Shown here piece after piece: positions 1 through 16,651 of a stretch of DNA of 32,000 nt. The stretch is from an uncultured Chloroflexia bacterium (GTDB taxonomy: Bacteria > Chloroflexota > Ktedonobacteria > Ktedonobacterales > JADMIN01). A program made the translations under genes and the position numbers. Location: positions 1-32,000 of the forward strand of contig CAVRAI010000007.1 of assembly GCA_963718915.1 (NCBI GenBank), written 5' to 3'. Under the pieces are notes generated by a model. That model was not told the origin of the DNA. It did not search any database and worked only from the letters and a program-made list of their open reading frames with translations. Position 1 is the stretch's first letter; every line of letters begins with the position of its first letter.

Positions 1-256
1 TGAGCGGTGGTCTCCGTGGGCCACGCTGTTGCAGACAGTTCACGCCTACAACAGTATACAGCGGGCCACGCGGCGCTGCCTACGCCGACTGTAAGCCCAT
101 TCGATCCGCCAGCGTCATTTCAGGCGAATCGACCGTGCCATGATGCAATCCAGCGCAACGATCCCACGGTCATGTGGGGCACGCCTGGTAGCTATCGGTT
201 ACAATAGAGATAACCGCCGGGCCTTTGTCGTCCTCTTGCCATCAGGTGTAAAAAGG

Positions 257-2206
257 ATGCCACCGATGCTGAACAGTCCACCGCAACTCTATCTGAGCGC
301 TTCGGGCCAGGATCGCCTGTTTGTCGATGGTTTGTGCGAGCGCCTGCGATCACGCGGTTTGGTGGTTCACGAAGGCGGCGATCTGAGCGGGCCAGCGACA
401 CGCGATGAAAGACAGCGCGACATCGACTCCTGCCAGGTCGTCCTTGTCGTCATTTCACACGCCAGCATGCGCTCCGCTGAGGTGACGGCGGATTATCAGT
501 ATGCGCTGGCCCACAACCAGCAGGTCATGCCAGTGATTGTCTCGTCGGCCAACGATCTGCCTGCCGATGTGAGCCATCTCCAGGCGATTGACTTTTCCGC
601 GGGCGAGCAGGCTGGCTGGGCGGCGCTGCTGATCGCGCTCGATACGCTGGGTATCGCCCGTTACCCGATTGCGACGCCACCTGATCTTGATGCCGAGGTC
701 GTGCTGGCCCGCGCGCGTTCCGGCATCACGCCTCCGGCATGGTATGTGAGCCGACTTCCGGTTCGCGCCGGTCGGCGGCTCTCGCGCTGGACCATCTATG
801 GGGCGACGATCACCGTCATCCTAACCATTCTGACGTATTTTGCCACCGGCCAAAATCTGCTCGTCGTGGCGCCAGCCCTCTACATCATTTATCAGCTCTA
901 TATCAAATACAGCCCTGCGGCGCTCCGTTCGCTGAAGAACAGTCCGATGGTGATATTGACGCCGGATGGCTTTGTCGTGACGACCAAAACCGGCGGGGCG
1001 GTCTCGGCGGCGTTCCGCGACGCGACTACTGACGTCCCGGTTGCGCAGACGCGCACGAGCGACGTGCATCTGAAGGTGGACCCCAGAAACGGGCGACCAT
1101 TCGTCGCAATGACGCTGAGCAAGTTTCCGGGCGAGGGCATACTGGGGCAGCAGGCGCTCGCGCAGTACCAGGCATACGTCGCGCGCTATCTGTCTGGTGA
1201 ACCAGGCCTGACGCCCACGGTTGCGGCGGCTCCGCTGCTCTTTATCAGCTACTCGCGCAAGGATGCCAGCATCGTAGACCGGCTTGAGTTGAGCTTGCGG
1301 CAGGCAGGATACAACGTCTGGGTGGATCGCAGCAATCTGCGGGCCGGGCAGGCCTGGTCGGCGCAGGTGGGCCAGGCGATTGATCAATGCGCCGCGCTGG
1401 TCGTCGCGCTCTCGCCAGCCGTGCTCCGGTCGGCGGCCGTCAGGAACGAATATCAGCACGCACTGAAAGCTGGCAAGCCGGTACTCGTCGCCAAGATTCG
1501 CACGACCCGCCAGCCTCCGTCCGAGCTTCGCCAGTGCCCGCGTAGCGACCTGCGCGACAACCTCTTGCTTGGCGTCCTGAACCTGGCCGAGGCGCTCGAT
1601 CAGGCGGGCGCGCATCCAGCGGCGACCTTCGGCGCGCTGCCCGGTGGGCGTCTGCCGCGGAGCTCCACGCTGGTCATGGCGCAGGCGCTTCGTGGGATAA
1701 CTCCGCCCGATGGCGCCGTCTACCGGGCGAGTCTGCCAGCGCGTTTCATCTATTCGACGATTATTCTGCTGGCGGTTGCGGCGTTTGGCGTTCTGTTCGC
1801 GCTGGCGATTGGCAATCTCTATCCCCTCTTCATTGCCAGCGTGCTGCTGTTTGGTATCGGCGTGCCGAACCTGCTCTTTACGCGCCGCCGGTTACGCTAT
1901 CCAGACACTATCATCACAGTGCCCGAAGGCTATATCACCTTTTTTAACTCCGCACGTCTGTCTGAGCATCCCTACGATTCGCTGAGCACGGTGACGATCA
2001 CGGCGTCTGACGCCTTCAGCGGCATCACGCTTGCCAATAGCGGGATCGGGTCGAGCAAGCCCTATGCCGTCCAGATTCGTCCAGGGTTTCACCAGAGCCG
2101 CGACATCGCCGAACGGATCATCTCCGATTTCAGCCACTACAAGCGCTTGAGCGTAGAGCAGTCCTCCAGCGATGCCAACGCGCTGGATATCGACACGACT
2201 TGCTGA
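257..2206 (+). CDS. Membrane protein with two tandem modules, each TIR-like domain + GITPP linker + 2 TM helices + PH-like (bPH/YdbS-like) domain
   Basis: Long ORF 140..2206. The likely start is ATG 257 or ATG 266, with AAAGGA at 252-257 serving as SD for 266. The second module has the TIR signature LLFISYSRKD...WVDR...ALSPAVLRSAAVRNEYQHAL. The first module aligns to it (LYLSASGQD...VISHASMRSAEVTADYQYAL). Hydrophobic helix pairs lie at nt ~788-910 and ~1745-1879. Confidence 0.8.
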   Translation: MPPMLNSPPQLYLSASGQDRLFVDGLCERLRSRGLVVHEGGDLSGPATRDERQRDIDSCQVVLVVISHASMRSAEVTADYQYALAHNQQVMPVIVSSANDLPADVSHLQAIDFSAGEQAGWAALLIALDTLGIARYPIATPPDLDAEVVLARARSGITPPAWYVSRLPVRAGRRLSRWTIYGATITVILTILTYFATGQNLLVVAPALYIIYQLYIKYSPAALRSLKNSPMVILTPDGFVVTTKTGGAVSAAFRDATTDVPVAQTRTSDVHLKVDPRNGRPFVAMTLSKFPGEGILGQQALAQYQAYVARYLSGEPGLTPTVAAAPLLFISYSRKDASIVDRLELSLRQAGYNVWVDRSNLRAGQAWSAQVGQAIDQCAALVVALSPAVLRSAAVRNEYQHALKAGKPVLVAKIRTTRQPPSELRQCPRSDLRDNLLLGVLNLAEALDQAGAHPAATFGALPGGRLPRSSTLVMAQALRGITPPDGAVYRASLPARFIYSTIILLAVAAFGVLFALAIGNLYPLFIASVLLFGIGVPNLLFTRRRLRYPDTIITVPEGYITFFNSARLSEHPYDSLSTVTITASDAFSGITLANSGIGSSKPYAVQIRPGFHQSRDIAERIISDFSHYKRLSVEQSSSDANALDIDTTC

Positions 2207-2500
2207 ACGGGATCTGACTCAACAGCGAGGGGCCGTGCGGTTCTGGCCGTTCCATTTTTCGGCGAGCGTATCGAAGAGTGTCGGCATCTCGACGCATGCT
2301 ATGCACACGACCAGTAATTTGCGCAGCTGAGAAGCGTCCTTGCTTATGACACTGGTTACTCCGAGCGATCCCTATGGGTATCTTTGCAGGTTGCTGGATT
2401 CAGCATATAAGGAAGTGATACGCGCCGAGATATGAACCCGGCAACAATTGGCGTGAAACTGGCCGTGTCACTCGCGCATTGTGGCCGAATGTTTCGCCGC

Positions 2501-2529
2501 TTGACGGCATGTAACGGTAGGTCTATATT
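2501..2529 (+). promoter_or_regulatory. Sigma-70-type promoter candidate (TTGACG - 17 nt - TATATT) for the NfeD/SPFH operon
   Basis: TTGACG at 2501-2506 and TATATT at 2524-2529 are separated by exactly 17 nt. The site is ~83 nt upstream of the SD-supported start at 2612. Confidence 0.5.
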
Positions 2530-2611
2530 CAGGCTAGCGCCACCAGCAGAGATGTGTTATGGAATGTGGCGGAGAAGGCAGAGCGGCTGGTTTTGGGTAA
2601 GGAGGCTTCCT

Positions 2612-4015
2612 ATGCGCGTGGCATCCTTCTCTGCGCGAAGCGGATGGATCGTTGGCGGCATCGCGCTGTCCCTGACGCTGATTGGCGTCTGCGCTGCGGC
2701 GCTGGCGGTGGCGGCTCTGGTTGGTGGCGCGCCCACGGCGCTCGCCAATAGCCCTCACGTCGATGTGGTCTCCTTCGATCAGGAGGTAGATACCGCGTCG
2801 GCGCGCTTCTTGACTGGCGCGATACAGACGGCGCATGACGATGGGGCGGCGCTGCTCATCATCGAGATGGATACGCCCGGCGGCGATCTTGACTCCATGA
2901 AGGCTATTTCGCAGGCGATTCTGGCCAGTCCGGTGCCCGTCGCGGTCTACGTTACCCCCGCGGGCGGGAGAGCGGCCTCGGCGGGCGCGCTGATCGCCTA
3001 CTCCGCACCGATTATCGCGATGGCGCCCGGCACCCGTATTGGCGCCGCCAGCCCGGTCGATAGCTCCGGCGATAACCTGCCTTCAACGCTGGATACCAAG
3101 GTCAAAAACGACCTGCTGGCGATGGTTCGCTCGGTGCAGAAGGCGTATCACCGCACCATAGCCCCAGCGGAGCAGACGGTGACCAACGCCGCCTCCTTCA
3201 CCGACGAGGAGGCGCTCGACAACGGCCTGATCAACCTGCGCGCCACCTCCCGCGATGATCTGCTCAGCCAACTCGACGACACATCGGTGGTGATGTTCAG
3301 CGGCAAGACTATTTTATTGCGGGTCGTGGGGCTGCCAGTGACGGTGCTGGAGCCGACATTCGCCGATCAGGTGCAGGCGTTTTTCCTCGATCCCACCGTG
3401 CTCTTCCTGGTTTTCATCGTCGCGGCGGTCTGTATCTATCTCGAACTGGCGCATCCCGGAGCTATCGTGCCGGGAACCATCGGCGCGATTGCGCTGGTGC
3501 TTTTCCTGCTGGGCGCTGGAACGCTCGACCCCAACTGGGCGGGGCTGGCGCTGATGCTGCTGGCGATTGTGCTGCTGGGGATAGACGTGCGCGTGCCGAC
3601 TCATGGCGTCCTCTCGATAGGGGCATTGGTCAGCCTGGCGCTCGGCTCGTTTATCTTCTTTGACACTGGTGTGGACCGGGGCTCGCAACCACTCAGTCCA
3701 GTGATCATCGGCGGGGTGGTAATTGGCGTCGGCCTGATCGCGCTCATCGTACTGCAATTCGTGATCCGCTCGCAGCGCTGGCCGGTGCGCACTGGCAGCG
3801 CGGGACTGGTTGGCCAGCAGGCGACGGTGCTAACATCGCTAGCGCCAGAGGGCCGCGTGCGTGTCATGGGAGAGGATTGGAGCGCTCGTCTGACGCAGGT
3901 TGATGCGCCGCCCATCGAGGCGGGCGCGTCGGTTCGGGTGGTGCGCGTGGAGGGACTAAAAGTCCTGGTTGAGCCAACTTCGGATGTGGTGGGAGTGTCA
4001 CGTCGTCATAAGTAA
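2612..4015 (+). CDS. NfeD-family membrane-bound serine protease (ClpP-class N-domain, TM region, C-terminal OB/NfeD domain)
   Basis: ATG 2612 is preceded by AAGGAGG (2599-2605). The N-domain reads IIEMDTPGGDLDSMKAI...YVTPAGGRAASAGALIA. Multiple TM helices follow, and the C-terminus reads EGRVRVMGEDWSARL...VRVVRVEGLKVLVEP. The gene is paired with a downstream SPFH gene. Confidence 0.85.
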   Translation: MRVASFSARSGWIVGGIALSLTLIGVCAAALAVAALVGGAPTALANSPHVDVVSFDQEVDTASARFLTGAIQTAHDDGAALLIIEMDTPGGDLDSMKAISQAILASPVPVAVYVTPAGGRAASAGALIAYSAPIIAMAPGTRIGAASPVDSSGDNLPSTLDTKVKNDLLAMVRSVQKAYHRTIAPAEQTVTNAASFTDEEALDNGLINLRATSRDDLLSQLDDTSVVMFSGKTILLRVVGLPVTVLEPTFADQVQAFFLDPTVLFLVFIVAAVCIYLELAHPGAIVPGTIGAIALVLFLLGAGTLDPNWAGLALMLLAIVLLGIDVRVPTHGVLSIGALVSLALGSFIFFDTGVDRGSQPLSPVIIGGVVIGVGLIALIVLQFVIRSQRWPVRTGSAGLVGQQATVLTSLAPEGRVRVMGEDWSARLTQVDAPPIEAGASVRVVRVEGLKVLVEPTSDVVGVSRRHK

Positions 4016-5058: not shown

Positions 5059-5724
5059 CTACTCAGCACTCGGCGCGCGCGAGGGGGCGTTGAGTTGCGC
5101 GTAGTCGACGTAGCGCTGGTAGTCGTCTGGGTCGATCAGCCCCTGTGAGGAGTAGAATTTCATCATCACCTCCAGCTTGAGGATGCTGATGAGATTGATG
5201 CTCTGCGCCTTCAGTCGCGCATGAGCGCCCATGTCGCGGTCGATCAGCACCAGCGCGTCGTGGACGACAATATCGTGTTCTTGAAGAAATTGCGCTGTCT
5301 CCAGAATATTCCTGCCGCCGGTAATCAGGTCGTCAATCAGCAGCGCGCGCGCTCCCGGCTGGAAGCGCCCCTCGATGCCGCGCGGGCCGGTGCCTTCGGG
5401 CTTGAGACGCGGATAAATCAGTGGAACCGATGATTCCAGCGAGAACGCCGTAGCGAGCAGCAAGCCACCAACCGGCACACCAGCGACGACATCGTAGGGA
5501 TGTACCCGCGCGCGCCGCAACGATTGCGCCAGCGTGACCTCCTGGTGCATCAGTTTGACCGCGACCCGAAGCGCCATTGGATTGCTAATGAGCAGCTTGG
5601 GATTGATAAAGACGGGTGAGTTAGTGGTGCTGTCGCCCAGAGTGAAATCGCCGAACGAGACAGCGCCAAGGTCGTACAATGCGCGTGCCAGCCACAGGTT
5701 ATCCAGCGCCTGATTTCTGTTCAT
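5059..5724 (-). CDS. Type I phosphoribosyltransferase, orotate phosphoribosyltransferase-like
   Basis: ATG at 5724 is preceded by GGAGGG. The PRPP-binding loop reads ALLIDDLITGGRNI, and the N-terminal region reads LGAVSFGDFTL...SPVFINP. The longer ORF reaching 5862 has no SD support. Confidence 0.75.
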   Translation of the reverse strand: MNRNQALDNLWLARALYDLGAVSFGDFTLGDSTTNSPVFINPKLLISNPMALRVAVKLMHQEVTLAQSLRRARVHPYDVVAGVPVGGLLLATAFSLESSVPLIYPRLKPEGTGPRGIEGRFQPGARALLIDDLITGGRNILETAQFLQEHDIVVHDALVLIDRDMGAHARLKAQSINLISILKLEVMMKFYSSQGLIDPDDYQRYVDYAQLNAPSRAPSAE

Positions 5725-5860
5725 GCTCAACCCTCCGGAAATCCTGTCCATTTCATCCGCGCTGGCAAGCGAACACCCATGCGCATGCGGCAATGCACAG
5801 CACTGTCCGACGGCATCGTCGAGTGGAGTACAGCGAGCGCCAGGAGAACTTTCCGCCCGC

Positions 5861-5869
5861 ATTGTACCA
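5861..5869 (-). promoter_or_regulatory. Extended -10 promoter candidate (TGGTACAAT) for the PRTase gene
   Basis: The reverse complement of 5861-5869 is TGGTACAAT, matching TGnTAnAAT. It lies ~135 nt upstream of the 5724 start. Confidence 0.35.
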
Positions 5870-5949: not shown

Positions 5950-6140
5950 GCGAATTATAGTGACAACTCCCCACAGCTAAAGCCGGGGGCTTCTAGGCCG
6001 AAGCCAGAGACTGTTGCCCCAGTCTCAAAATGTTCAAGCTAGCGTTGTAGTCGCGGTCTAACACCACCCCGCAACAGGGGCAGGTATAGGTGCGGTTAGC
6101 GAGGTCGGAGAGGGAGAGTGGTTGCCGATGGCCACACTGC
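5950..6140 (-). ncRNA. Predicted TnpB guide RNA (omega/right-end RNA) region overlapping the tnpB 3' end; extent not determined
   Basis: In IS200/IS605 elements the omega RNA is encoded across the tnpB 3' end and the RE. Here hairpins overlap the tnpB stop (5978-6005). There is no direct evidence of transcription. Confidence 0.3.
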
Positions 6141-7160
6141 GAGCAATCCTGAGACGTATACACAGGGTTCACCGCGACATACTGCCGACCGGCCCATGCT
6201 GCCTTGTAGGCGATGAGGGCTGCGAACTGACTCCACGCGGCGTCCTGGATACTCTTGGCGAGACAGTGGTTATGCACCATTCGGTTGACCGACAAGTCCT
6301 CCACCGCTATTAGGTCAAAGATGTCCACGATGCGACGACTGTGCTGATGGGTAAAATCACTGCGCCGCCAGGCGATGCGCTCATGCACGCGCGCCACCGC
6401 GTGACGATGCTTCGCCCGTTCCGGCGTACCCTTGGCAAGTTTGCTATGGGCGTGCTGGACTTTGGCCAATGCCTTCTCCTCGCCACGAAAGAAACGCGGG
6501 TTGGCGATCTCCTGTCCATCGCTCAGGGTGGCAAACGTCTTCAAGCCCATGTCTATGCCGACTCGCTGCCCCGTTTTCGGCAGTGGGCTTGGCTCCGCGC
6601 ACTCGCAGGAGAAACAGATGTACCACTTGCCCGTGTATGCCCGTGCTACTGCCCGTGCTACTGCCCGTGCTACTGCCCGTGATGGTGGCCGTCTTGGGCG
6701 TACCCTCCAGGGGCCGATGCAGGATGATCTTCACCAGCCCTACCCCATGCAGCCGCAGGCGGCGGGCCTCAGCATCAGATTCCCCATCCAACTTGCAACC
6801 GACTGGGACTTGTGGGTAGGTGATACTATCGTAGCGTCCTGTGCCGCGAAAGCGGGGATAGCCTGGCGTCTCGCCTGTGCGCACGCGCCGGAAGAACGCT
6901 TGAAAGGCCAGATCAATGCGCACCGCGACGTTCTGCAAGACTTGCGACTGCACCGTAGCTAGCGCAGGTCGAGCGGCTTTCAAGGCAGGCAACTCGGCCT
7001 GCTGGTCATAGAGACGCAGCGATTCCTGTCGTTGCTCCCAGGCGCCGCGCCGCGCAGCGAGCAATTCATTGTACAGCCAGCGGCATTCCTCAAGTTGGTG
7101 CTCCAGGAGGCGCTGTTGCTGCTTGTTCGGGTATAGGCGGTACTTGAACGTCTTACGCAT
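5993..7160 (-). pseudogene. tnpB: RNA-guided endonuclease TnpB (OrfB), frameshifted by an internal tandem-repeat expansion
   Basis: The N-terminal ORF 6444..7160 reads MRKTFKYRLYPNKQQQRLLE...GYPRFRGTGRYDSITY. The C-terminal ORF 5993..6550 has RuvC residues (GIDMG, AVEDL, DRDYNAS) and the Zn finger CSQCGH...CPCCG. The two frames join only if 46 nt (6635-6680) are removed, which gives ...TATITGKWYICFSCE... Confidence 0.85.
6623..6680. repeat. Tandem array inside tnpB: GCTACTGCCCGT x3 + GTATGCCCGT + parental CCACTTGCCCGT
   Basis: Direct reading shows TGCCCGT recurring five times at spacings of 12, 12, 12 and 10 nt. It translates as TGSS-TGSS-TGSS on the minus strand. Confidence 0.9.
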
Positions 7161-13796: not shown

Positions 13797-14965
13797 GCCT
13801 CTGGGAAGCCATTACCTGGAATACCGCGCGCGCTGGTGGGTTTACCGCCTATCTGCTCGTGACGATCTCAGTGCTGCTGGGGCTGGCGCTGAGCATGCGC
13901 TGGCAGGTGCGCTGGTGGCCGCGGCTCATCTCCTATGAATTGCACGTCTGGATCACCAACCTCTCGTTCGTCTTTCTCGGCATCCATATCTTCGCCAGCT
14001 GGATCGACCCCTTTACCCGCTTTGGCCTGAACGAGCTGCTGTTGCCCTTCGCCAGCCACTATCGCCCGCTCTGGATGGCGCTCGGCATCGTCGCGATGTA
14101 CCTCTCAATCGCCGTCGCGCTCAGCCTCTTCATCCGGCGGGAGATCGGCTATACCTGGTGGCTGCGCCTCCACGAGCTTTCCTTCGTCGTCTGGGCGCTG
14201 GCGACGGTTCATGGGCTGGCGACCGGCAGCGACACGCGCACGCTCTGGGGCATCGAACTCTATATTGTCTCGGCGGTGCTGGTCTGTGGATTGCTCTGCG
14301 TGCGGCTGCTCCAGCCGGTGGCGCCCGGCGGGAGGATACATCCCATATGGGCCGGAATTACCGCGGCCTCGCTCGTCGTCGCCATTCTCTGGACGGCGAC
14401 GGGGCCGCTTCGCCCTGGCTGGAATGTCATCGCGAATAATGGCAACGGGTCAGGCGGAGTCGCGCAGGCAGCGGGAAGCTCCACTGGGACGACCACGCCG
14501 ACGGCCACAGCCGCCAGCGCCGCGCCATTTAGCCAGCCATTTACCGCCGCGTTGCAGGGTACCATGAGCCACCAGACCGATACGAACACGGGTCAGCCGA
14601 TCCTTCGTCTCGATCTCACCATGGGCGGCGCGCAGCAGGGCGTCCTGCGGATTGAGCTATGGGAACAGGACAGTGGCGGGATTGGCGACGGTGGCGACGG
14701 TGGAGATGGTGGCAATGGGGGGAATGGCCAGGTGACGGCGACGAAGGTGACACTCGGCGTCGATGCGACGACACCACTCTACCAGGGGCAAATCTCGACC
14801 CTGAATGGGGGATATATGGTCGCGCAACTCGACCCTACGCAGCCTGGCCAGCCATCACTGCAACTGACAATCAACGTCCAGGCGCAGGGCGATAATGTGT
14901 CGGGCACGGTATCAGCCATGCCCCTGGCGCTTGTCCCCAGCGGTAGCGTTGCTCGCGATGGGTAG
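13793..14965 (+). CDS. Ferric-reductase-like (FRD/MsrQ-like) bis-heme transmembrane protein with Gly/Thr linker and C-terminal beta-rich domain
   Basis: The start shares an ATGA overlap with the apbE stop and has the SD AGGGGAGA. The His pairs H-x13-H (HVWITNLSFVFLGIH) and H-x12-H (HELSFVVWALATVH) match the FRD/NOX heme-ligand spacing. Confidence 0.8.
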   Translation: MSLWEAITWNTARAGGFTAYLLVTISVLLGLALSMRWQVRWWPRLISYELHVWITNLSFVFLGIHIFASWIDPFTRFGLNELLLPFASHYRPLWMALGIVAMYLSIAVALSLFIRREIGYTWWLRLHELSFVVWALATVHGLATGSDTRTLWGIELYIVSAVLVCGLLCVRLLQPVAPGGRIHPIWAGITAASLVVAILWTATGPLRPGWNVIANNGNGSGGVAQAAGSSTGTTTPTATAASAAPFSQPFTAALQGTMSHQTDTNTGQPILRLDLTMGGAQQGVLRIELWEQDSGGIGDGGDGGDGGNGGNGQVTATKVTLGVDATTPLYQGQISTLNGGYMVAQLDPTQPGQPSLQLTINVQAQGDNVSGTVSAMPLALVPSGSVARDG

Positions 14966-16651
14966 TGGGGATATGCTTCCCTTCGCGCTCCGCCCAAAGC
15001 ACGATGGCGCGCTATAGCTAATTGTCGGCGAAGCGCCAGCGGCGCCGTTTGTCGGGTTAATGGTGATCGAGTTGTTCTGCGGCAAGGAGACGAATGCGGG
15101 CGAGAAGGTCAGCGTAATGGTTCTGCTGGCGCCAGCGCCCAGCTCACCCGAACCTGGCCGCACCGTAATCACATTACCTGTGAAGTTCGGCTTTTGCGCG
15201 CTCCACCCGGTTGACTCCGGCCCCAGATTCCTCAGTGTCACCGTAAACGTCCGATCATTGCCACTGCAACCAAACTGCACGCTGGTCGGCGAGACGCGCA
15301 ACCAGTTGACGACCGGCGTAGGCGACGGTTTCGGGGTGGCCGTTGGCCATGGGGTCGCGGTTGCGTGAGGGGCAATGTTGCCTGTGTTGTTAGGGTTGAA
15401 GTTGTTGAAGAGATTCGGCAGCGAGCCACTCGCCAGCACGATGGCCATCGTCAGCAGCAACACACCCGCGGCGCCCAGCAGCGCCAGGATGCCAAGAGTG
15501 CGCGGCTGCAAGATAGGTGAGACTCCATCGCCTGAGGGTTGTGGAGCCGAGGGCCACGCGGGCGCGCCGAAGCCACCCTGTCCGCCACGATACGCGCCAT
15601 CGTAGAGCGTCGGTGCGTCTGGGCCTTCACGGAACTGTGGAAGGTCAGCATCGGTTCCACCCGAAAGCACGGGCGGAGCATACCTGGAGTTACTGCGGGA
15701 TGTTGTGGCCGCGAGCAAGGTCTGCGGCTTCGTCCGCGCGTTGACAATGCTCCCCGTGGTGGGGATGCCGGTGCTGGCCGCGTGGAGCGCGCGGGCAAAC
15801 GCGCCAGTAGAACCGGGGCGGTGCGATGGATCCTTCGCCATCGCCCAGGAGATCGCCTCATCCACGTCGCGCGAGACATCGCGTCGCATCGAACGTAGTG
15901 GCCGTGGTGTCTCGGTCAGGTGGCGCGCCAGAATCCCGTTCAGATCGTTGCCCTCGAACGGCGTGTGGCCCGCCAGCAGCGCATATGCCACGACGCCAAG
16001 CGCGTAGGTGTCGGTTGCCGCGCTGACGGCGTCGCCGCGCACCTGTTCAGGAGCCATATATTCCGGGGTGCCCATCGCCGCGCCTGAAACCGTTAGATCA
16101 CCGCCCTCGAAGACCGAGGCCACCTCAGGCAAATCCGCCATATTCAGCGGGCGAGCGATGCCGAAGTCTCCCAGCAGCAGCCTGCCATCGGGGTGCAGCA
16201 GCAAATTAGACGGCTTGACATCGCGGTGAACGATGCCATGCTGGTGGGCGTAGTCAAGCGCCGCGGCGGCCTGGTCGATGTAGGAAATCACCTGCGCCAC
16301 CGTAAGCCGGGCATCAGGCGCGAGGAAGTTCGCCAGCGAGCCATCTGAGAGATAGGGCATGACGATATAGGCCAGCTCGTCCTGTTCGCCAAACTCGTAG
16401 ATCGGGACGATATTGGCGTGATCGAGCGCAGCCGCTGCGTCAGCCTCACGGCGGAAACGCGCCAGGAATATCTGCCAGGCGTCATCGTCGGCGGCGAGTC
16501 CAGGGCGCAGCACCTTCACCGCCACATGGCGGCGCGGTCGCTCCTGGCGTGCCAGATAGACCGCGCCCATGCCGCCGATGCCGAGCGGGCGCTCGAGGAT
16601 AGATGACCCAAGCCGTCTGCCAATTAGCGCGTTTGCGTTCCATACATCCAT
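14912..16651 (-). CDS. Hanks-type Ser/Thr protein kinase with one TM helix and an extracytoplasmic Ig-like C-terminal domain
   Basis: Kinase motifs are GIGGMGAVYLA, AVKVL, HRDVKPSNLLL, DFGIA and GTPEYMAPEQ. The TM helix is ILALLGAAGVLLLTMAIVLA. The 3' end overlaps the convergent gene by 54 nt. Confidence 0.9.
   Translation of the reverse strand: MDVWNANALIGRRLGSSILERPLGIGGMGAVYLARQERPRRHVAVKVLRPGLAADDDAWQIFLARFRREADAAAALDHANIVPIYEFGEQDELAYIVMPYLSDGSLANFLAPDARLTVAQVISYIDQAAAALDYAHQHGIVHRDVKPSNLLLHPDGRLLLGDFGIARPLNMADLPEVASVFEGGDLTVSGAAMGTPEYMAPEQVRGDAVSAATDTYALGVVAYALLAGHTPFEGNDLNGILARHLTETPRPLRSMRRDVSRDVDEAISWAMAKDPSHRPGSTGAFARALHAASTGIPTTGSIVNARTKPQTLLAATTSRSNSRYAPPVLSGGTDADLPQFREGPDAPTLYDGAYRGGQGGFGAPAWPSAPQPSGDGVSPILQPRTLGILALLGAAGVLLLTMAIVLASGSLPNLFNNFNPNNTGNIAPHATATPWPTATPKPSPTPVVNWLRVSPTSVQFGCSGNDRTFTVTLRNLGPESTGWSAQKPNFTGNVITVRPGSGELGAGASRTITLTFSPAFVSLPQNNSITINPTNGAAGASPTISYSAPSCFGRSAKGSISPLPIASNATAGDKRQGHG

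What the first reader, a model, noticed from the sequence alone, without database searches (positions are those of the whole stretch)
257..2206. Internally duplicated TIR-2TM-PH-like membrane protein: candidate self-contained NAD-directed defence/abortive-infection effector
Seen in sequence: one ~650-aa ORF holds two copies of the same ~300-aa module.
- Using ORF-140 numbering, residues 49-172 and 365-490 align to each other (LYLSASGQD / LFISYSRKD; FVDGLCERLRSRGLVV / IVDRLELSLRQAGYNV; DIDSCQVVLVVISHASMRSAEVTADYQYAL / AIDQCAALVVALSPAVLRSAAVRNEYQHAL).
- Each copy is followed by a conserved linker (ARSGITPPAWYVSRLPVR / ALRGITPPDGAVYRASLPAR), a pair of hydrophobic helices (217-257 and 536-580) and a ~90-aa beta-rich segment.

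Established knowledge: the F/L-x-S-Y-S-x-x-D ... S-x-x-(W/V)-x-x-E pattern marks bacterial TIR domains. These are NAD+-cleaving or signal-generating modules in Thoeris, CBASS, Pycsar and related anti-phage systems. Two TM helices followed by a PH-like fold is the bPH (YdbS/YdbT) layout.

Inference:
- With two TM helices per module, all four soluble domains would face the cytoplasm.
- A covalent TIR pair tethered to the membrane could mimic the TIR-TIR assembly needed for NADase activation.
- No ThsA/SIR2, cyclase, STING or other known partner is present in the window, so the gene does not match a named system that I recognise.
Basis: partly seen in the sequence, partly recalled or inferred. 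Interest (0 to 1): 0.75.

Follow-up and report, generated by a model that had tools for sequence, protein, structure and literature searches.

The report
Membrane-anchored tandem TIR / pseudo-TIR protein
A soil Ktedonobacterales gene encodes a membrane protein built from two copies of a TIR–two-helix–PH-like unit, of which only one TIR keeps the catalytic residue for NAD+ cleavage; the design is undescribed, but nothing around it or its relatives links it to phage defence.

Summary
ORF 266/257..2206 (+) encodes a ~646-aa protein with two copies of one unit: a TIR domain, a helix-strand linker, a transmembrane hairpin and a PH-like beta domain. The halves match at BLASTP E=8e-14. Both hit Pfam TIR_2 above threshold. 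AlphaFold models (pLDDT 82 and 85) match solved TIRs and bacterial PH domains.

The C-terminal TIR keeps an invariant Glu (E398; nt 1448-1450) that aligns with the Glu of the SARM1 motif VHKEIVTAL. The N-terminal TIR has Asp there, and Ala/Gln/His/Lys in most distant relatives. It also lacks the WVDR..GGQ.W loop, yet it is as conserved as the active copy, so it is a pseudo-TIR.

The family is rare: 75 module hits among 1.84 billion cluster representatives. Every hit that carries an organism label is Ktedonobacterales or Chloroflexi.

The gene looks monocistronic. It sits in fixed housekeeping synteny (lpdA | gene | nfeD-SPFH) in relatives of at least 64% identity, and in five other non-defence contexts further out. 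PADLOC gives only TIR-domain-level hits.

The most likely function is a self-contained, membrane-gated NAD+-cleaving switch. A defence role remains unproven. I rate it a new variant of a known kind, of moderate interest.

The parts
266..2206 (+). Gene for the tandem TIR membrane protein (646 aa from ATG 266). ATG 257 is an alternative start, and the mechanical ORF begins at 140.
   Evidence: ORF. AAGGA at 253-257 and homologues starting MLNS. 26 full-length homologues of 39-95% identity.
278..640 (+). N-terminal pseudo-TIR domain (residues 8-128, 257-based numbering).
   Evidence: Pfam TIR_2 E=5.8e-14. The profile of this domain type hits SPARTA TIR (2.4e-6) and MyD88 (4e-4) in the PDB. It lacks the WVDR..GGQ.W loop.
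491..493 (+). Asp79 codon, at the position of the catalytic Glu.
   Evidence: Aligned D to E. Translation. This position is D/A/Q/H/K in most family members.
641..784 (+). Linker 1: a conserved helix (LDAEVVLARA) plus a short beta hairpin (WYVSRLPV) before the membrane.
   Evidence: The most conserved region (mean column identity 0.83). hhalign against linker 2 gives E=6.8e-5. Model elements H146-155 and E163-173.
785..910 (+). Transmembrane hairpin 1 (residues 177-218).
   Evidence: Hydropathy. Model helices 177-196 and 201-218. 4-residue loop and basic flanks.
911..1192 (+). PH-like beta domain 1 (residues 219-312): six strands and a C-terminal helix.
   Evidence: AlphaFold secondary structure. 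Part of the module profile A2.
1232..1579 (+). C-terminal canonical TIR domain (residues 326-441).
   Evidence: Pfam TIR_2 E=7.4e-21. Foldseek hits to SPARTA, SARM1 and MyD88 TIRs. The profile hits Cat1 (6e-11), SPARTA (6e-10) and SARM1 (4e-9).
1448..1450 (+). Glu398 codon (E437 in ORF-140 numbering), the predicted catalytic glutamate.
   Evidence: Invariant in alignments of 16, 15 and 17 sequences down to 23% identity. It aligns with the Glu of SARM1 VHKEIVTAL. Translation.
1580..1738 (+). Linker 2: helix (SSTLVMAQAL) plus a short strand (AVYRAS).
1739..1897 (+). Transmembrane hairpin 2 (residues 495-547).
   Evidence: Kyte-Doolittle hydropathy up to 2.6. Model helices 495-518 and 522-547. 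RRRLR after TM4.
1898..2191 (+). PH-like beta domain 2 (residues 548-645): six strands and a long C-terminal helix.
   Evidence: Module model with pLDDT 85.4. The top Foldseek PDB hits are bacterial PH domains 3dcx and 3hsa (E=2.4e-3, probability 1.0), followed by eukaryotic PH, PTB and FERM domains.
2231..2258 (+). Terminator-like hairpin with a T-rich tail, 25 nt after the stop codon.
   Evidence: This is a consensus match only. Together with the promoter-like site at 2501-2529 ahead of nfeD, it suggests a monocistronic gene.

Best explanation
The gene encodes a self-contained enzyme anchored on the cytoplasmic face of the membrane. It is made of two paralogous units fused in one chain.

Unit 2 is a canonical TIR with the catalytic Glu, followed by a linker, a transmembrane hairpin and a PH-like domain. 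It is the catalytic unit and most likely cleaves NAD+, like the effector TIRs it most resembles (Cat1, SPARTA TIR-APAZ, SARM1, TIR-SAVED).

Unit 1 has the same layout, but its TIR has lost the Glu and the BB-loop-like WVDR..GGQ.W motif. It is a conserved non-catalytic partner.

TIR NADases need a second TIR to complete the active site. The pseudo-TIR is therefore inferred either to hold the active TIR in an off state or to serve as the non-catalytic half of an asymmetric TIR pair.

The two YdbS-like membrane modules are inferred to set the geometry and clustering of the TIRs. A change in the membrane, or higher-order clustering of the modules, would switch on NAD+ consumption and cause growth arrest or death.

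Shown: the domain architecture, the asymmetry, the conservation, the stand-alone gene organisation and the genomic contexts.

Inferred: the NADase chemistry, the regulatory role of the pseudo-TIR, the membrane trigger, and the biological role (infection or stress response).
For: - Both TIRs pass the Pfam threshold.
- The full model has pLDDT 81.7 and pTM 0.76, and Foldseek matches it to SPARTA, SARM1 and MyD88 TIRs.
- The profile of canonical TIRs hits the NAD+-depleting effectors Cat1, SPARTA and SARM1 best, and the invariant Glu aligns with the Glu of SARM1 VHKEIVTAL.
- PADLOC's best matches are SPARTA-type and SAVED-TIR effector TIRs (about 1e-17), not ThsB (at least 0.02).
- The Glu is invariant down to 23% identity. 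The partner TIR has D/A/Q/H/K there in 14 of 16 cluster representatives.
- The pseudo-TIR is conserved as well as the active TIR: 47% against 50% identity between the window protein and P0026.
- Each TIR type stays with its own module type. In P0050, P0088 and P0090 the order of the two units is swapped, so the two units behave as a fused hetero-pair.
- The PH-like fold and predicted cytoplasmic topology are supported.
- No conserved partner gene appears in six independent contexts.
- A terminator-like site follows the gene and a promoter-like site lies ahead of nfeD.
Against: - There are no biochemical data. A catalytic Glu is necessary for NADase activity but not sufficient.
- The residue four positions before the Glu is Ala, not the Trp I recall from cADPR-forming bacterial TIRs (recollection, not tested here). 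The product therefore cannot be predicted.
- The Asp in the N-terminal TIR is invariant within the close clade (16 of 16), so some residual function at that site cannot be excluded. Two distant members (P0031, P0057) keep a Glu in both TIRs.
- There is no defence-island or mobile-element association.
- The gene shows no compositional anomaly.
Confidence: 0.45

Rival explanations
1. Dedicated anti-phage abortive-infection system. The membrane modules sense phage attack on the envelope, such as DNA injection or holin action, and the TIR depletes NAD+ to kill the infected cell.
For: - The TIR is of the effector type, closest to SPARTA, Cat1 and TIR-SAVED.
- The gene is single and self-contained, with no conserved partner.
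- It evolves faster than its neighbours: 85-86% identity against 90-95% in L005 and L007, and about 64% against 78-92% in L001.
- One distant member lies about 4 kb from an integrase/excisionase element.
- One relative carries an in-frame stop, which may indicate the gene is dispensable.
Against: - Synteny is fixed among housekeeping genes in the close clade.
- No PADLOC-recognised gene lies beside the two distant members whose neighbours were scanned or within 12 kb of the gene in the window, apart from a broken TnpB.
- The gene was not found on viral contigs.
- GC content is no different from the flanks.
- The in-frame stop could be a long-read assembly error.
Confidence: 0.3
2. A lineage-specific physiological regulator rather than a conflict system. 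It would be a membrane-state sensor tuning NAD+ or ADP-ribose pools, or triggering dormancy or programmed cell death, in filamentous spore-forming Ktedonobacteria. It might act alongside the adjacent NfeD-SPFH membrane-microdomain pair.
For: - The gene is inherited vertically and syntenically next to nfeD-SPFH in all relatives of at least 64% identity.
- All nine domains are under purifying selection.
- The family appears restricted to one bacterial lineage.
- From my recollection of the B. subtilis sigma-W literature, not tested here: YdbS/YdbT-type 2TM-PH proteins and NfeD-SPFH operons are both membrane-stress genes. Papers listed link YdbS/YdbT-type PH proteins to bacteriocin transport or immunity.
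Against: - The nfeD-SPFH neighbourhood is lost in relatives of 47%, 39%, 30% and 24% identity.
- Terminator-like and promoter-like sites separate the gene from nfeD, and the spacer varies from 167 bp to 1.5 kb.
- No known housekeeping role for bacterial TIRs came up in my searches.
Confidence: 0.2
3. A fused signal-and-effector device resembling a Thoeris system in one chain. The active TIR makes an ADPR-derived signal, the pseudo-TIR or the PH-like domains bind it, and the four transmembrane helices then breach the membrane.
For: - Newly described Thoeris types pair signalling TIRs with transmembrane effectors (bioRxiv 10.64898/2025.12.03.692087, read).
- The pseudo-TIR is conserved, as a ligand-binding module would be.
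- Modules also occur without any TIR, either alone or doubled, so they may have an activity of their own.
Against: - Similarity to ThsB is marginal (PADLOC E of at least 0.02; NCBIfam ThcB4 31 bits against a cut-off of 220).
- The TIR resembles NAD+-depleting effectors more closely.
- The hairpin loops are only 4 residues long and no pore-forming family matches. SLATT_3 matches at E=0.24 in 1 of 18 module sequences.
Confidence: 0.1
4. A non-enzymatic scaffold. Both TIRs act only as protein-protein assembly modules, as in MyD88 or TLR signalling, organising a membrane complex.
For: The pseudo-TIR profile aligns over its full length best with MyD88, a scaffold TIR. TIRs of this phylum are often fused to WD40 or STAND scaffolds.
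Against: A Glu that aligns with the SARM1 catalytic residue and is strictly invariant in the canonical TIR, across 17 cluster representatives, is hard to explain without catalysis.
Confidence: 0.07

Closest known systems
NAD+-depleting effector TIR domains (SARM1; SPARTA TIR-APAZ; CRISPR-associated Cat1; TIR-SAVED)
   Same: The C-terminal TIR shares the fold, the F-I-S-Y/H motif in the first strand, the D..L..G loop, and the Glu that aligns with the one in the SARM1 motif VHKEIVTAL. These are the best PADLOC and PDB matches.
   Different: There is no Ago/APAZ, SAVED, CARF or ARM-SAM regulatory part. Regulation would have to come from a cis pseudo-TIR and two membrane modules. None of those proteins is an integral membrane protein with this layout.
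YdbS/YdbT-type bacterial PH (bPH) membrane proteins
   Same: A transmembrane hairpin is followed by a small PH-like sandwich with a C-terminal helix, and the unit is repeated within one protein as in YdbT. The best solved structural matches are bacterial PH domains 3dcx and 3hsa.
   Different: No significant match to the Pfam bPH models (bPH_2 absent; bPH_7 E=0.022 in 2 of 18 module sequences). The module has an extra conserved helix and strand ahead of the hairpin. In 75 hits it occurs with TIRs, alone (about 195 aa) or doubled (about 400 aa).
Thoeris (ThsB TIR plus ThsA or other effector)
   Same: It contains a bacterial TIR. Some Thoeris effectors are transmembrane proteins.
   Different: There is no separate effector gene, similarity to ThsB is marginal, and curated cut-offs are not reached.
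Catalytic/pseudo-catalytic paralogue pairs in TIR signalling (scaffold TIRs such as MyD88)
   Same: One TIR lacks the catalytic Glu but is conserved. Its profile matches MyD88.
   Different: Here the two are fused in one membrane protein. No such bacterial tandem was found in the literature searched.

Membership tests
TIR domain superfamily (Pfam TIR_2, PF13676) | Profile match above the curated gathering score | tested here: met
   N-terminal half 53.1 bits and C-terminal half 75.3 bits against a cut-off of 28.
TIR domain superfamily | Flavodoxin-like TIR fold | tested here: met
   AlphaFold model with pLDDT 81.7. Foldseek against the PDB finds SPARTA TIR at 5e-6, SARM1 at 1e-4, and MyD88 with target-normalised TM-score 0.69. 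Profiles of both TIR types hit PDB TIRs.
Catalytic (NADase) TIRs | Conserved catalytic glutamate equivalent to SARM1 E642 | tested here: met
   For the C-terminal TIR only. E398 is invariant and aligns with the Glu of SARM1 VHKEIVTAL. That this SARM1 Glu is E642 is from my own knowledge.
Catalytic (NADase) TIRs | The same glutamate in the N-terminal TIR | tested here: not met
   Asp79 in the window and its clade. A/Q/H/K in most distant members, and Glu in 2 of 16.
Catalytic (NADase) TIRs | Measured NAD+ cleavage | not testable with these tools
   Needs biochemistry.
cADPR-isomer-forming bacterial TIRs (AbTir or ThsB type) | W-x-x-x-E motif (recalled from the literature, so a lead only) | tested here: not met
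   The residue four positions before E398 is Ala, and that column is variable.
Bacterial PH domain (bPH) | PH-like beta sandwich capped by a C-terminal helix | tested here: met
Bacterial PH domain (bPH) | Match to the Pfam bPH profiles (bPH_1 to bPH_7) | tested here: not met
   No bPH family at E of 1 or below for the protein or its halves. bPH_7 at E=0.022 in 2 of 18 module sequences. No match in stand-alone modules.
YdbS/YdbT layout | Two transmembrane helices directly preceding the PH domain, with cytoplasmic orientation | tested here: met
   Hydropathy, model helices and positive-inside charges. This is a prediction only.
Thoeris | ThsB-type TIR with an adjacent effector gene (SIR2/SLOG, Macro, transmembrane or other) | tested here: not met
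   ThsB models at E of at least 0.02. ThcB4 scores 31 bits against a cut-off of 220. Neighbours are nfeD, SPFH, a PRTase and a broken TnpB.
CBASS / Pycsar / type III CRISPR TIR effectors | Adjacent cyclase or CRISPR module, and a SAVED, STING or CARF sensor in the protein | tested here: not met
   Only the TIR part of the SAVED_TIR and CBASS effector models matches. No cyclase is present in the window.
SPARTA (short pAgo with TIR-APAZ) | APAZ domain and an adjacent short Argonaute | tested here: not met
   The match covers profile positions 6-87 of 430, which is the TIR only. No Ago is present in the window.
Anti-phage defence genes in general | Enrichment in defence islands, or in variable or mobile loci | tested here: not met
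   Six independent contexts were inspected. One is a fixed housekeeping synteny block. The others are different, with no recognisable defence genes; PADLOC scans of the unannotated neighbours in two of them found nothing. One locus lies near an integrase. None was found on viral contigs. The sample is small.

The most novel reading that the evidence does not exclude
The protein would be a fused hetero-pair in which a dedicated pseudo-TIR gates a catalytic TIR. Two PH-like modules, each split by a transmembrane hairpin, would convert a physical change in the membrane directly into NAD+ cleavage. That would make it a one-gene membrane-integrity sensor and suicide switch, and the first bacterial case of cis regulation of a TIR enzyme by a TIR pseudoenzyme.
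Probability: 0.2. Interest if true: 0.7.

Novelty: new variant of a known kind. Interest (0 to 1): 0.45.

Why it matters
TIR enzymes are central to immunity in bacteria, plants and animals. How their activity is switched on by assembly is an active question.

This family is a natural fusion of one catalytic and one non-catalytic TIR. The pairing is preserved through deep divergence and even through a swap of unit order. It would give a simple, genetically tractable model for asymmetric TIR-TIR activation or auto-inhibition.

It also attaches a first plausible output domain to a 2TM-PH-like module that is absent from Pfam and whose function is unknown.

If the trigger is a membrane event, the family would extend TIR signalling to direct surveillance of the membrane. 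If the role turns out to be physiological rather than defensive, it would be an unusual non-immune use of a bacterial TIR.

Tried and rejected
- Pfam, NCBIfam and PADLOC on the whole protein and on each half gave only TIR-level matches. STM3941_fam (E=0.61) and SLATT_3 (E=0.24 in 1 of 18) were treated as noise.
- The BFVD viral library gave only weak hits to uncharacterised PH-like proteins.
- The genome-contig scan returned only three close Ktedonobacterales/Chloroflexia loci, because the search patterns were narrow.
- The viral-contig scan found nothing. The module alignment was too divergent to build a search pattern.
- A second homologue search with a profile of distant members added no new family members. 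It returned only TIR-WD40, TIR-STAND and TIR-FGE-sulfatase proteins that share the TIR.
- A functional link to nfeD-SPFH was considered and rejected as a family-wide feature, because it is absent from relatives of 47% identity or less.
- Frameshifts in L001 were considered as evidence of pseudogenisation and rejected, because lpdA is also split on that contig. This suggests long-read assembly errors.
- The antisense ORF at 821-1615 (264 aa) was ignored as a by-product of high GC content.
- Literature searches for TIR combined with bPH, 2TM or Ktedonobacter found no precedent.
Full report
**1. Observation**

The window is about 62% GC and has no tRNA or Rfam hits. ORF 140..2206 (+) is the longest ORF at the left end. 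However, AAGGA at 253-257 is better spaced for ATG 266, and all homologues begin MLNS, so I take 266..2206 as the gene (646 aa). Residue numbers below count from 257.

BLASTP of residues 1-310 against 311-649 gives E=8e-14 with 27% identity over 254 aa. The alignment runs from the first TIR strand through the linker and both hydrophobic helices into the first strand after the membrane.

Taken alone, the beta-rich parts are hardly similar (hhalign E=0.027). The linkers are similar (E=6.8e-5). The duplication of the beta domain therefore rests on two things. The predicted secondary structure is parallel in both modules, with six strands and a C-terminal helix. A joint module profile also finds two stretches in each family member.

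**2. Domains**

*TIR domains.* Both halves exceed the Pfam TIR_2 gathering score. A full-length AlphaFold model built on 16 homologues has pLDDT 81.7 and pTM 0.76. Foldseek matches it to the TIRs of SPARTA, SARM1, MyD88 and BtpA.

*Membrane modules.* A model of module 2 alone has pLDDT 85.4. Its best solved matches are the bacterial PH domains 3dcx and 3hsa (E=2.4e-3, probability 1.0), followed by eukaryotic PH, PTB and FERM lobes. Pfam bPH profiles do not match significantly. The PH assignment therefore holds for fold and layout, not for family membership.

*Topology.* The transmembrane hairpins lie at residues 177-218 and 495-547. Their loops are 4 uncharged residues long and their inner ends are flanked by Arg/Lys clusters. 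All four soluble domains are thus predicted to be cytoplasmic.

**3. The two TIRs are not equivalent**

In 16 full-length homologues the C-terminal TIR has an invariant Glu in S..V..EY (E398; nt 1448-1450). The N-terminal TIR has an invariant Asp at the aligned position (D79; nt 491-493).

A profile search with the membrane module against 1.84 billion cluster representatives returned only 75 hits. Among them are roughly 18 clusters of two-unit TIR proteins down to about 23% identity.

Across these clusters the canonical TIR always keeps F-I-S-Y/H, WVDR..L.GGQ.W and the Glu. The partner TIR lacks the WVDR loop. At the Glu position it has D, A, Q, H or K in 14 of 16 representatives, and Glu in two.

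A profile of the canonical TIRs hits Cat1 (6e-11), SPARTA TIR-APAZ (6e-10) and SARM1 (4e-9). It places the family Glu on the Glu of SARM1 VHKEIVTAL, which I know as the catalytic E642. A profile of the partner TIRs still finds TIRs: SPARTA at 2e-6 and the scaffold MyD88 at 4e-4.

The partner TIR is as conserved as the catalytic one. Identity between the window protein and P0026 is 47% for the partner and 50% for the catalytic TIR. It is therefore a maintained pseudo-TIR, not decaying sequence.

**4. The units travel as units**

HMMs built separately from the two module types show a consistent pairing. The module after the pseudo-TIR is type 1 and the module after the canonical TIR is type 2, across the family. 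In P0050, P0088 and P0090 the canonical unit comes first, so the unit order is permuted. In P0050 and P0090 the module after the canonical TIR again scores as type 2, while the modules after the pseudo-TIR score ambiguously.

Other forms also exist:
- Single canonical units (P0060, confirmed on its contig).
- A module with a C-terminal TIR (P0068).
- TIR-less double modules of about 400 aa.
- Many stand-alone modules of about 195 aa, which sit in ordinary contexts.

None of these matches a Pfam family.

**5. Genomic context**

*In the window.* A terminator-like hairpin at 2231-2248 follows the gene. About 400 bp downstream come a promoter-like site at 2501-2529 and an nfeD gene whose real start is probably ATG 2612. 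An SPFH/Band_7 gene follows. Further on lie a PRTase-like gene, a frameshifted TnpB, NUDIX and MBL genes, a thioredoxin-NHL protein, ApbE, a Ser/Thr kinase, nuoJ-N and an MFS transporter. No ThsA/SIR2, cyclase, STING, Ago or SAVED gene is present.

*Close relatives.* Relatives of 64-95% identity, all labelled Ktedonobacterales or Chloroflexia where a label exists, share one block: ABC, GerE, two HtrA genes, TatA, an M16 peptidase, GNAT, lpdA | TIR gene | nfeD, SPFH. The spacer before nfeD varies from 167 bp to 1.5 kb and sometimes holds small lipoprotein-like ORFs.

The TIR protein diverges faster than its neighbours. It is 85-86% identical in L005 and L007 where NfeD, SPFH and the PRTase are 90-95%. 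In L001 it is about 64% identical where they are 78-92%.

*Distant relatives.* These sit elsewhere:
- His_Phos_1 upstream and unknown genes downstream (47% identity).
- ADH and ETF, with proS and tdk nearby (39%).
- LprAFG and MFS, with small unknown genes (30%).
- glnA (24%).
- ECF sigma factor genes about 4 kb from an integrase/excisionase element (swapped-order member).

PADLOC finds nothing in ten unannotated neighbours of the distant members P0039 and P0056. No viral contig encodes the protein. GC content is unremarkable.

**6. Interpretation**

Architecture and asymmetry are established as far as sequence and predicted structure allow.

The canonical TIR resembles NAD+-depleting effector TIRs more than ThsB-type signal producers, so NAD+ cleavage is the best guess for the chemistry. 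Known TIR NADases form their active site across two TIRs (established knowledge from SARM1, AbTir and SPARTA structures). A fused catalytic/pseudo-catalytic pair, conserved even through permutation, therefore argues that the pseudo-TIR regulates or completes the active TIR. The membrane modules are the only candidate sensor.

I propose a membrane-gated NADase switch with confidence 0.45.

Whether its purpose is phage defence (0.3) or a lineage-specific physiological role (0.2) cannot be decided from the present evidence. Single-gene systems need not sit in islands, and the gene does evolve faster than its neighbours.

A fused signal-and-effector device (0.1) and a pure scaffold (0.07) are less likely.

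**7. Novelty**

NCBI already labels these proteins as 'TIR domain-containing'. PADLOC does not recognise any system here. The module is not in Pfam. Searches of the literature found no description of a TIR-2TM-PH tandem or of a bacterial cis pseudo-TIR.

I rate it a new variant of a known kind: a TIR effector with an undescribed regulatory architecture. It is rare and lineage-restricted. Interest is moderate until function is tested.

Noticed in passing
window 5993-7160 (-): An IS605-family TnpB (OrfB) is split into two overlapping ORFs in different frames: 6444-7160 (HTH_OrfB_IS605) and 5993-6550 (OrfB_IS605 plus TNB domain). It hits PADLOC Cas12f models at 1e-43 through TnpB homology, and no Cas genes were seen nearby. 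The element is absent from the gene list of the syntenic locus L005, so it is a local insertion that is now frameshifted.
   Followed up: partly
window 14912-16651 (-): A Hanks-type Ser/Thr kinase with an Ig-like C-terminal domain scores 3e-81 against PADLOC models of the single-gene defence kinase PD-T4-6. This may be only generic kinase similarity. It lies 12.7 kb from the TIR gene.
   Followed up: no
window 2432-4015 (+): The mechanical nfeD ORF (527 aa) is about 60 codons longer than its homologues (447-484 aa). ATG 2612, preceded by GGAGG, is the likely start, and a sigma-70-like site (TTGACG, 17 nt, TATATT) sits at 2501-2529.
   Followed up: partly
between the TIR gene and nfeD: window 2207-2611; L005 11897-12062; L007 11939-13172; L001 11525-13005: The spacer length is variable (167 bp to about 1.5 kb). 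The longer versions carry minus-strand ORFs with a lipoprotein-like N-terminus (a weak DUF3558 match).
   Followed up: partly
L007 11597-11599: The orthologue on a 1.65-Mb MAG contig has an in-frame stop codon that removes the last PH-like domain. In L001 the gene is frameshifted, but lpdA is also split there, which suggests long-read assembly errors rather than decay.
   Followed up: partly
window 5059-5862 (-): A PRTase-like ORF (PRPP motif LLIDDLITGG; Pfam Pribosyltran only at E=1.2e-3) is conserved at 89-93% identity in all syntenic loci. Its true start is probably internal, giving about 223 aa.
   Followed up: partly
P0100 (L015-L017), P0070 (L018), P0058, P0064, P0054: The helix-strand-2TM-PH-like module exists without any TIR. 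It occurs as proteins of about 195 aa and as double-module proteins of about 400 aa. It matches no Pfam family, and the two stand-alone examples whose loci were examined (P0100, P0070) sit in ordinary gene contexts. In L018 an unrelated TIR-FGE-sulfatase gene lies 4 kb away.
   Followed up: partly
L014 3773-6343: The swapped-order family member P0050 lies about 4 kb downstream of an HTH_17 excisionase-like gene and a phage-type integrase, which are preceded by many small unannotated ORFs. This is the only context with a hint of a mobile element.
   Followed up: no
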